Of a stretch of 64,000 nt of DNA, positions 28,379-29,574 are shown piece by piece; the first letter of the stretch is position 1, and every line of letters starts with the position of its first letter. The stretch is taken from positions 118,236 to 182,235 of the forward strand of contig JASCQW010000002.1 in the NCBI GenBank assembly GCA_030264375.1, in the 5' to 3' direction. The notes below the pieces were generated by a model. That model did not search any database. It was not told where the DNA came from and saw nothing but the letters and a program-made list of their open reading frames with translations. The position numbers and the translations under genes are program-made. Origin of the DNA: Carcharhinus longimanus (lineage: Eukaryota).

Positions 28379-28384
28379 TTTATT
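28379..28384 (-). terminator. Polyadenylation signal AATAAA of the defensin-like gene
   Basis: TTTATT on the plus strand about 100 nt downstream of the stop codon. Confidence 0.55.
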
Positions 28385-28486
28385 GATATATTTTATGTTT
28401 CTGAAATGCGGAGATCTGTTGCAGCCACATGAAAGGACAGCCGATTTGAAGCTGGTTGCTAAGGAACCGATTACAATTCAAATATT

Positions 28487-29476
28487 TCATTGAAAAAGTG
28501 CTGGATCCGCGCAGCAATATTGGCCATACCAACACAGATTAGAAAACGGTTGAACCTGGTCCGGAACGCAGCGTTCATATTGGCAGACCCCACCAAACAT
28601 TCCGCATCCGAACGTCTCCTCTGAAACAAAACAAAAGAGGATTTTTTTGGTCTGCATTTGTGGTAATGAAATAGGCGGTAGACATGAGAACATCAGCAAT
28701 CCGAGGCGGCTTTGTTACATGCAGATGAGGGTGGCTGCAAAAATACAATCTTACAAAATTACCTTTCACCTTCATGTGCTAAACGAGCTTCCTCTGACAT
28801 TTATCTTCATTATTCAAAAAAATCATTGCTGGTGACAGTGAGTTATAAATTCCCTTCACTTTATATTTAATATTTATTCGTTTGTACACCTGATTGGATT
28901 TATTAGTGACTTTCTTATAATAATGCACTATGATGATAATTATGTGATAAGATTTGAAATCAAGTATCAGTGAGGGGCGGTGAGGGAACTCCAGAACTTG
29001 AGCCCAAGAAGGAGAAGGTAAATTCACCTTGGATGAAGTGATGAGATTTGTTTGATTATTTTTGGAGAGCAGAGTTGTGTGAAAATTTTGGGCCTGGTAA
29101 CCGTTTAGGAGATAAAGATGTGAAGATCGTGGAGGGGGGTGTGTGGGTTGGGGGTGGTGGGGCGAGGGGGAAGTCGGACGCTGGACTAAAAGAAAGGGAA
29201 AGATCATTGTTGAATTTAAAATTAAATCATTCAAATGTTGGCAGGAATAAAGCGGCGACATTTGCCAGATCTGAGAACCAAACAAGTGATGTGTACTTGT
29301 GGTAGAAAGTTGTATTGAGAAAAAAAGCGTTACAATGCAGAGTAAGAACAACCGTATTTTGGCAACCATAAGATATACTCACTTGCTTCTTCAGGAGTGT
29401 AGACGTAGACGCCTTGGACAACAATTTCCTGCACCAGCAGCAAGACACCAAACACTATGCACAGCGCTTTCCCCAT
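28487..29476 (-). CDS. Two-exon beta-defensin-like precursor, join(29476..29383, 28620..28487), 75 aa: MGKALCIVFGVLLLVQEIVVQGVYVYTPEEAKETFGCGMFGGVCQYERCVPDQVQPFSNLCWYGQYCCADPALFQ
   Basis: Exon 1 has ATG at 29476, a hydrophobic signal peptide and a phase-1 GTGAGT donor at 29382-29377. Exon 2 follows a polypyrimidine tract and CAG acceptor (28623-28621). The split codon A|AG = Lys keeps frame. Cys spacing C-x6-C-x4-C-x11-C-x5-CC matches beta-defensins. Stop at 28489-28487. Confidence 0.88.
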
Positions 29477-29518
29477 TTTCCAATGAGTTGCAATGAAATG
29501 ACTTGAGTATGGGAGTTC

Positions 29519-29574
29519 TTTATATTGAGAGTTGTTAAATATTAAGCTGTTCACTCACATAATGTGGGGATTGG
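29519..29574 (-). promoter_or_regulatory. TATA box (TATAAA, 29524-29519) and CCAAT box (29574-29570) of the defensin-like gene
   Basis: Both motifs are on the coding strand, about 43 and 94 nt upstream of the ATG, in canonical order. Confidence 0.6.

What the first reader, a model, noticed from the sequence alone, without database searches (positions are those of the whole stretch)
28379..29574. Complete, intact beta-defensin-like gene hidden across two exons in a cartilaginous fish
Seen in sequence: two small ORF fragments splice precisely (GTGAGT donor, polypyrimidine-CAG acceptor, matching phase 1, 762-nt intron) into a 75-aa precursor. It has a signal peptide (likely cut after VVQG), the six-Cys pattern C-x6-C-x4-C-x11-C-x5-CC with the GVC motif at Cys2, a TATA box, a CCAAT box and a polyA signal, all inside one gap-free contig. 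Established: this Cys spacing and a phase-1 intron after the signal exon are hallmarks of vertebrate beta-defensins. Inference: such short genes are often missed by annotation, and chondrichthyan defensins are poorly characterised, so this may be an undescribed peptide. It has two coding exons, unlike the usual three-exon teleost layout.
Basis: partly seen in the sequence, partly recalled or inferred. Interest (0 to 1): 0.85.

Follow-up and report, generated by a model that had tools for sequence, protein, structure and literature searches.

The report
Acidic shark beta-defensin, fast-changing family
Two small exons form an intact-looking shark gene for an acidic six-cysteine peptide of the beta-defensin type, one of at least 17 related copies in this genome whose close relatives change unusually fast between fixed cysteines; it is likely a secreted defence peptide, but whether it is switched on and what it does are untested.

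Summary
This copy alone hits no Pfam family, and two low-confidence models gave no fold match. The family carries the case. The genome holds at least 17 related second exons in four subfamilies; 3 of 14 scanned pass Pfam's beta-defensin cut-off; a family profile ranks solved beta-defensins first in the PDB (weak, E 0.01); all 7 gene models built share a 91-94-nt first exon and phase-1 intron. Among 7 close copies, amino-acid-changing sites vary 2.2-3.1 times more than intron and flank while no cysteine changes. This copy is acidic (net -4). A neighbouring gene shows the DNA is shark. Protein searches of a database rich in shark proteomes, and six shark-directed paper searches, found no description. 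Expression, disulfides and function are untested; synteny is unresolved. The scan noted such genes before in other shark genomes (5 notes). Verdict: new member of a known kind, useful as support for an ancestral two-exon layout. Side find: two paralogues lack Cys4 and gain a cysteine from exon 1.

The parts
29570..29574 (-). CCAAT box, 50 nt upstream of the TATA box
   Evidence: kept in 6 of 6 aligned promoters, the 74%-identical C8223 included
29519..29524 (-). TATA box (TATAAA), 48 nt upstream of the ATG
   Evidence: kept in 4 of 6 aligned promoters, changed in one C122 copy and in C8223
29383..29476 (-). Exon 1 coding part (94 nt): predicted signal peptide (about 21-22 aa) and acidic spacer; phase-1 end
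28621..29382 (-). Intron, 762 nt, GT-AG, phase 1
   Evidence: 747 and 741 nt in the two other complete close copies; splicing itself not observed
28487..28620 (-). Exon 2 coding part: six-Cys domain (6-4-11-5-0), Gly-Gly-Val-Cys at Cys2, 7-residue conserved tail, TGA
28379..28486 (-). Predicted 3' untranslated part ending in AATAAA (28384-28379)
   Evidence: AATAAA kept in 6 of 7 copies that reach it
27957..28378 (-). Downstream flank shared with the close paralogues (part of the duplicated unit); four paralogues stop matching at about 27957-27959
27699..29842 (.). The 2,144-base N-free segment that carries the gene; neighbouring segments are not reliable neighbours

Best explanation
This is an intact two-exon shark gene of the beta-defensin family, one young copy in a birth-and-death expansion, that likely encodes a secreted, disulfide-held defence peptide which, being acidic, would act by shape-dependent binding to microbial targets rather than by charge-driven membrane lysis. 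Shown: gene anatomy, paralogue family, fixed cysteines, excess amino-acid change between them, net charge -4. Inferred: transcription from the CCAAT/TATA promoter, splicing, signal cleavage after residue 21 or 22, the C1-C5, C2-C4, C3-C6 bonds (precursor 37-67, 44-61, 49-68), possible trimming of the acidic N-terminal spacer. Inferred role: epithelial or leukocyte host defence; paralogues span net -4 to +3 in exon 2, which fits a shifting microbial partner better than one conserved host receptor; chemoattraction may be a second activity.
For: Anatomy exact. At least 10 subfamily-A second exons (intron and flank about 8-9% apart: more than alleles would be, inference) and 7 more in three other subfamilies. 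3 of 14 scanned exons pass PF00711's cut-off, 7 more match it below the cut-off (best close paralogue E 0.0055). Profile of 10 exons: 16 of 17 PDB sequences at E<=10 are beta-defensins, best avian beta-defensin 3 (E 0.01) and beta-defensin 3 (E 0.018), all six Cys aligned in the best match. ESM Atlas first hit a PF00711 cluster (0.82, a lead only). 7 of 7 gene models across four subfamilies have a 91-94-nt exon 1 and phase-1 intron; this intron is the shared mark of beta- and big defensins (PMC7203481, passages). Selection, 7 copies: 43 changes at 49 non-Cys zero-fold sites against 150 at 535 non-coding sites (ratio 3.1, p 3e-9; 2.6, p 2e-4 without CpG sites), 0 at 12 Cys sites; tree-free count 24 of 49 against 126 of 535 variable (p 2e-4; p 0.011 without CpG). 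Contigs from runs of three coded organisms lie on exon 2 with no indel and with none of the 40 listed variants (25 more not shown) at a Cys-changing position. Anionic fish beta-defensin inhibits bacteria and attracts leukocytes (PMC8698591, abstract); killing tracks positive charge and falls with salt while chemotaxis needs the disulfides (PMC5016922, abstract).
Against: This copy alone scores against no Pfam family and no relevant PDB sequence. Both models are weak (pLDDT 60.4 and 63.2) and gave 0 matches in four fold searches. PDB profile E-values are only 0.01-0.05 and the profile includes the Pfam-positive paralogues. Third codon positions are also raised (21 changes at 42 sites, against 0.28 per non-coding site), so pooled dN/dS is only 1.24 over 42 codons and 1.94 over non-Cys codons 1-36. 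The 7 copies were picked as intact out of 10, which favours Cys constancy. Broken copies exist, so a young silent copy could look like this one. No defensin exon in the assembled part of the cathepsin B upstream region where amniote clusters lie. Nothing here separates an immune from a reproductive role.
Confidence: 0.62

Rival explanations
1. A recently silenced copy: the family is functional, but this copy is no longer expressed or needed and has not yet decayed.
For: 2 of 10 subfamily-A second exons are broken (one 1-base deletion, one with two stops), one first exon has lost its start and carries a stop, one promoter has lost its TATA box. Copies are only about 8-9% apart in non-coding DNA, so little time has passed. 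This copy has Thr where 6 of 6 close paralogues have Arg near the start of exon 2.
Against: Promoter boxes, start context, both splice sites, six Cys, stop and polyA signal are all intact and its donor is the consensus form.
Confidence: 0.16
2. A reproductive-tract beta-defensin (sperm coat or epididymal type) rather than a general antimicrobial; rapid change driven by sexual selection.
For: Acidic charge and fast divergence fit; mammals have many epididymal beta-defensins and sharks fertilise internally (both recalled, no call).
Against: No long glycosylation-type tail in this subfamily (7 residues after the last Cys); no tissue data of any kind.
Confidence: 0.15
3. A six-Cys secreted peptide of another fold or origin that resembles beta-defensins by convergence.
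For: No Pfam hit and no fold match for this copy; the 11-residue third loop is one longer than in the Pfam-positive paralogues.
Against: Graded series of paralogues up to Pfam-positive ones with the same Gly-x-Cys and the same exon-1 length and phase; reciprocal hits between subfamilies A and B in a 2.7-Gb genome (E 0.03-0.07).
Confidence: 0.05
4. Chance or assembly artefact.
For: The scaffold is a mosaic of 79 short segments.
Against: Pattern in 1 of 100 shuffles; two other complete copies with the same structure; public contigs match exon 1 and the donor with 0 differences, though they may come from the source sample.
Confidence: 0.02

Closest known systems
Tetrapod beta-defensins (Pfam PF00711, PF13841; solved chains returned: avian beta-defensin 3 7lzl, beta-defensin 3 1kj6, beta-defensin 1 1e4s)
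   Same: Signal region on exon 1, phase-1 intron just before the Cys domain, six Cys ending in CC, Gly-x-Cys at Cys2, two coding exons as in mammals, duplication with fast amino-acid change as in birds (PMC3161384, passages).
   Different: Net -4 rather than cationic; 11 residues between Cys3 and Cys4; below Pfam's cut-off; acidic spacer of 14-15 residues before Cys1; conserved 7-residue tail; not found in the assembled part of the cathepsin B-flanked locus.
Teleost beta-defensins, including the anionic flounder peptide (PMC8231796; PMC8698591)
   Same: Six-Cys secreted peptide of a fish; anionic members exist and are active.
   Different: Teleost genes have three exons and few copies (up to seven in salmonids, PMC8231796 passages); here two exons and at least 17 exon-2 copies. 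No sequence hit to them.
Invertebrate big defensins (PMC7203481)
   Same: Phase-1 intron at the 5' end of the Cys-rich module.
   Different: No hydrophobic N-terminal domain: only about 10 mostly acidic or polar residues lie between the signal region and the intron.
Squamate beta-defensin expansions (Komodo dragon, PMC6716921, passages)
   Same: Large family split over scaffolds, with anionic members (9 of 66) and variants in Cys spacing and number.
   Different: There the cluster is anchored to cathepsin B; here placement is unresolved.

Membership tests
Vertebrate beta-defensin | Six cysteines in the order C-x6-C-x3/4-C-x(about 9-11)-C-x5/6-CC (consensus recalled; checked against PDB alignments) | tested here: met
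   Spacing 6-4-11-5-0; all six aligned to avian beta-defensin 3 with a 2-residue gap.
Vertebrate beta-defensin | Gly-x-Cys at Cys2 | tested here: met
   Gly invariant in 14 of 14 aligned exons.
Vertebrate beta-defensin | Secreted precursor with N-terminal signal peptide on exon 1 | tested here: met
   Lys at position 3, 12-residue hydrophobic run, polar end; by inspection and hydropathy only, cleavage site unsure.
Vertebrate beta-defensin | Phase-1 intron at the 5' end of the Cys module (PMC7203481) | tested here: met
   This gene and 6 of 6 other modelled genes; splicing inferred from DNA.
Vertebrate beta-defensin | Profile score at or above the Pfam cut-off (PF00711 or PF13841) | tested here: inconclusive
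   This copy: no hit. Paralogues: 3 of 14 above the cut-off, 7 below it, 4 none.
Vertebrate beta-defensin | Three-stranded antiparallel beta core | tested here: inconclusive
   Models at pLDDT 60 and 63; first shows four short strands, second almost none; 0 fold matches.
Vertebrate beta-defensin | Disulfides C1-C5, C2-C4, C3-C6 | not testable with these tools
   Model coordinates are not returned; needs mapping or a structure.
Vertebrate beta-defensin (typical, not defining) | Net positive charge | tested here: not met
   Net -4, pI about 4.1 after the signal. Anionic members are accepted in the family (PMC8698591 abstract; PMC6716921 passage, which also doubts some of them), so this does not exclude membership.
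Amniote CTSB-TRAM2 beta-defensin cluster | Position between cathepsin B and TRAM2 (PMC6716921) | tested here: inconclusive
   Squalene-synthase and cathepsin exons tail to tail on C99 at 87.36 Mb, a DM10 exon at 87.27 Mb; TRAM2 exon named from recall only (searches did not confirm it). No defensin exon in 200 kb read; 14.1 of 40.6 kb of the key interval is N.
Vertebrate beta-defensin | Expression and antimicrobial or chemotactic activity | not testable with these tools
   No RNA run listed.
Big defensin | Hydrophobic N-terminal domain between signal and Cys module | tested here: not met
   About 10 polar or acidic residues only.
Teleost-type beta-defensin gene | Three exons, mature peptide split over exons 2 and 3 | tested here: not met
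   Whole Cys domain and stop in exon 2.
Venom peptides of beta-defensin fold | Venom-gland expression and toxicity | not tested
   None appeared in the PDB searches; no reason from the data to pursue it.

The most novel reading that the evidence does not exclude
Sharks keep an undescribed, independently expanded beta-defensin repertoire with the ancestral two-exon layout, in which this subfamily has turned acidic under diversifying selection and works in salty, urea-rich fluids by specific binding instead of lysis, while a sister subfamily has rewired the disulfide frame by swapping Cys4 for a cysteine brought in from exon 1.
Probability: 0.3. Interest if true: 0.68.

Novelty: new member of a known kind. 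Interest (0 to 1): 0.45.

Why it matters
A 2019 review lists only transferrin, squalamine and kenojeinin I as antimicrobials of sharks and skates (PMC6795676, section 14). A real, multi-subfamily beta-defensin repertoire would push the family to the base of jawed vertebrates and gives the outgroup test of the proposed two-exon ancestor (PMC8231796): all 7 modelled genes are two-exon, phase 1. The close paralogues are a natural charge series (-4 to +3) on one scaffold, which makes the long-standing question of what acidic defensins do directly testable. It also shows a class of short immune genes that annotation seems to miss in sharks. It is expected biology in a new lineage, not a new kind of system.

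Tried and rejected
No RNA holder listed; the runs laid cover intron and exons alike and show no joint across the intron: no evidence on expression either way. Single-sequence Pfam and PDB searches: nothing. Word-index protein searches: no candidate for exon 2 among 41-132-aa proteins; 3 candidates, none at E<=0.1, for the 10-exon profile among 18-76-aa proteins; longer proteins were not searched with the profile. HMM scan of 1.84 billion representatives: 2 hits, both long proteins with 7-10 repeated stretches; the one read is a Cys-rich repeat, rejected. Fold searches: 0 matches with weak models. PF13841 and PF08127 genome searches found nothing, although PF13841 scores one known copy above its cut-off, so genome searches miss members. 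Of the 29 PF00711 genome matches 10 were read as loci and one more through; only C2:252.7 kb, C6561 and C139 have six Cys; 18 were not read. Synteny: a 77-base match between the cathepsin-upstream interval and a defensin contig proved to be a common repeat. 180 kb around the C142 copy holds no second defensin exon, and the rest of the window's scaffold only one, so a tandem array is not shown for subfamily A. Carriage by a mobile element was considered: no element ends were defined and four of five chromosome-scale placements are within 0.2 Mb of a scaffold end among short segments, which suggests misplacement by scaffolding; not resolved.

Full report
Observation. The gene sits in one N-free segment of 2,144 bases. 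The loose six-Cys pattern appears once in the window and in 1 of 100 shuffles. The precursor is acidic: net -4 and pI about 4.1 after the signal region.

Where it comes from. The window is part of a 310-kb scaffold of 79 short segments, median 2.4 kb, so the neighbours are not reliable. They include 7TM, SRCR and reverse-transcriptase pieces. One 7TM ORF has 1,057 relatives; of the 120 listed, all named ones are 'GPR139-like' or similar proteins of sharks and one skate, best 83% to Mustelus asterias. The DNA is therefore shark, and the protein database holds many shark proteomes.

This copy alone is a weak case. It matches no Pfam family and no relevant PDB sequence. The ESM Atlas puts a PF00711 cluster first at 0.82, a lead only. 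Two AlphaFold models, from 10 and 12 sequences, reached pLDDT 60.4 and 63.2 and gave no match in Foldseek or VIA-align; such blanks say nothing about the fold.

The family makes the case. Genome searches found at least 17 related second exons, a lower bound. Subfamily A has 10: the window's copy, 6 other intact ones at 63-81% identity, one with a 1-base deletion, one cut by its contig end and one diverged copy with two stops; three further contigs carry only a first exon. Subfamily B has 2, C has 3 and D has 2. Of 14 exons scanned, 3 pass the PF00711 cut-off (all C), 7 match below it and 4 do not match. A profile of 10 exons returns 17 PDB sequences at E<=10, 16 of them beta-defensins, best E 0.01; with 14 exons, 8 of 10 at E<=1. 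All 7 genes for which both exons could be paired have a first exon of 91-94 bases and a phase-1 intron, across subfamilies only 19-34% identical to this copy in exon 2; one pairing crosses an N stretch. That intron is described as the shared mark of vertebrate beta-defensins and big defensins (PMC7203481, passages).

Selection. In the 7 intact subfamily-A exons (3 of 10 left out as broken or partial), intron and flank differ by 8-9% but non-Cys replacement sites by 20%. On a tree built from non-coding DNA: 43 changes at 49 non-Cys zero-fold sites against 150 at 535 non-coding sites (ratio 3.1; 2.6 without CpG sites, p 2e-4) and 0 at 12 Cys sites. A tree-free count agrees (ratio 2.4, p 2e-4; 2.2, p 0.011 without CpG). 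Against: third positions are raised too, pooled dN/dS is 1.24 over all codons and 1.94 over the non-Cys core, and choosing intact copies favours constant cysteines. Net charge of exon 2 runs from -4 to +3. Contigs from public runs of three coded organisms lie on the whole gene at mostly 90-99% identity, many per run; on exon 2 they show no indel and none of the 40 listed variants (of 65) changes a cysteine. The pattern matches duplicated avian beta-defensins (PMC3161384, passages).

Genomic place. Four of the five chromosome-scale scaffolds with copies carry them within 0.2 Mb of an end; the C142 copy lies mid-scaffold with no second defensin exon in 180 kb. In amniotes the cluster lies between cathepsin B and TRAM2 (PMC6716921, passages). 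This genome keeps a squalene-synthase exon and a cathepsin exon tail to tail on C99 and a DM10 exon 87 kb away; an exon between them reads like the start of TRAM2 by recall, unconfirmed. No defensin exon lies in the 200 kb read, but 14.1 of the 40.6 kb between that exon and the cathepsin exon is N. The cluster may have fallen out of this gap, or lie elsewhere.

How it most likely works. Shown: anatomy, family, charge, selection pattern. In birds, killing follows positive charge and is blocked by salt, while chemotaxis needs the disulfides (PMC5016922, abstract); an anionic flounder beta-defensin both inhibits bacteria and attracts leukocytes (PMC8698591, abstract). An acidic peptide in shark fluids is unlikely to lyse by charge. 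Fast change of the residues between the cysteines points to a changing partner, most simply microbial. I commit to a host-defence peptide acting by shape-dependent binding (0.62), against a silent young copy (0.16), a reproductive role (0.15), another fold (0.05) and artefact (0.02).

Novelty. No relative came from two word-index searches or the HMM scan, though these miss short divergent proteins and the profile was not run on proteins over 76 aa in the named database. Six paper searches pairing defensin with shark, elasmobranch, chondrichthyan, Callorhinchus or genus names (listings and abstract starts) showed no paper on chondrichthyan defensins. I read section 14 and term passages of PMC6795676, and passages of PMC10707392, whose one mention of defensin is a carp reference. 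Subscription journals are mostly not held and no supplements were read, so a description may exist. The scan's own notes report such genes in other shark genomes, none in this genome or by sequence; I read them after forming my view (stated) and do not count them as support. Verdict: new member of a known kind, interest 0.45.

Side find. Two subfamily-D genes near the end of C137, 90% identical, have only five cysteines in exon 2 (Cys4 missing) but one extra at the end of exon 1, seven residues before Cys1, so the predicted precursor again has six. A rewired disulfide frame is the simplest reading; their acceptor is the rarer AAG, and nothing was tested.

Noticed in passing
G000:C137:50,529,700-50,533,000 (L070, minus strand): Two 90%-identical two-exon defensin-like genes lack Cys4 but gain a cysteine from exon 1 (six in all, spacing 6-6-4-16-0): possibly a rewired disulfide frame. 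A subfamily-B gene with a dibasic site in exon 1 lies about 5 kb away.
   Followed up: partly
G000:C99:87.27-87.37 Mb (L113-L132, L069): Squalene-synthase, cathepsin, TRAM2-like (recalled) and DM10 exons in the order of the amniote beta-defensin locus; the interval where the cluster would lie is 35% N and shows no defensin exon.
   Followed up: partly
G000:C2:252,704-258,500 (L059, L060), same scaffold as the window: A second, Pfam-positive beta-defensin gene (subfamily C), 66 aa, exons 5.7 kb apart across an N stretch.
   Followed up: yes
G000:C142:23,776,200-23,777,330 (L007, L018): Complete close paralogue with a seventh cysteine in the exon-1 spacer; the only copy placed mid-scaffold.
   Followed up: partly
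G000:C139:46,540,633-46,540,800 (L064): Cationic (+6) Pfam-positive exon with a 20-residue tail after the last cysteine; exon 1 not found on its 1.5-kb segment.
   Followed up: partly
window 8463-9213, 33448-33852, 41185-41634, 56296-57373: Several GPR139-like 7TM pieces of a family hugely expanded in sharks (1,057 relatives at E<=1e-30 for one of them).
   Followed up: partly
window 24466-25035, 43289-43766, 44733-45164: SRCR-domain exons on separate short segments (the first confirmed by Pfam).
   Followed up: partly
window 29943-30578 and 21920-22537: Retroelement remains: a weak Tf2-type SH3 match (E 0.075) just across the gap upstream of the gene, and a reverse-transcriptase piece.
   Followed up: no
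window about 29130-29210: A C-rich stretch in the intron where six paralogous contigs' partners break off and where public contigs show deletions of 52-79 bases; it probably explains why exon-1-only and exon-2-only contigs exist.
   Followed up: partly
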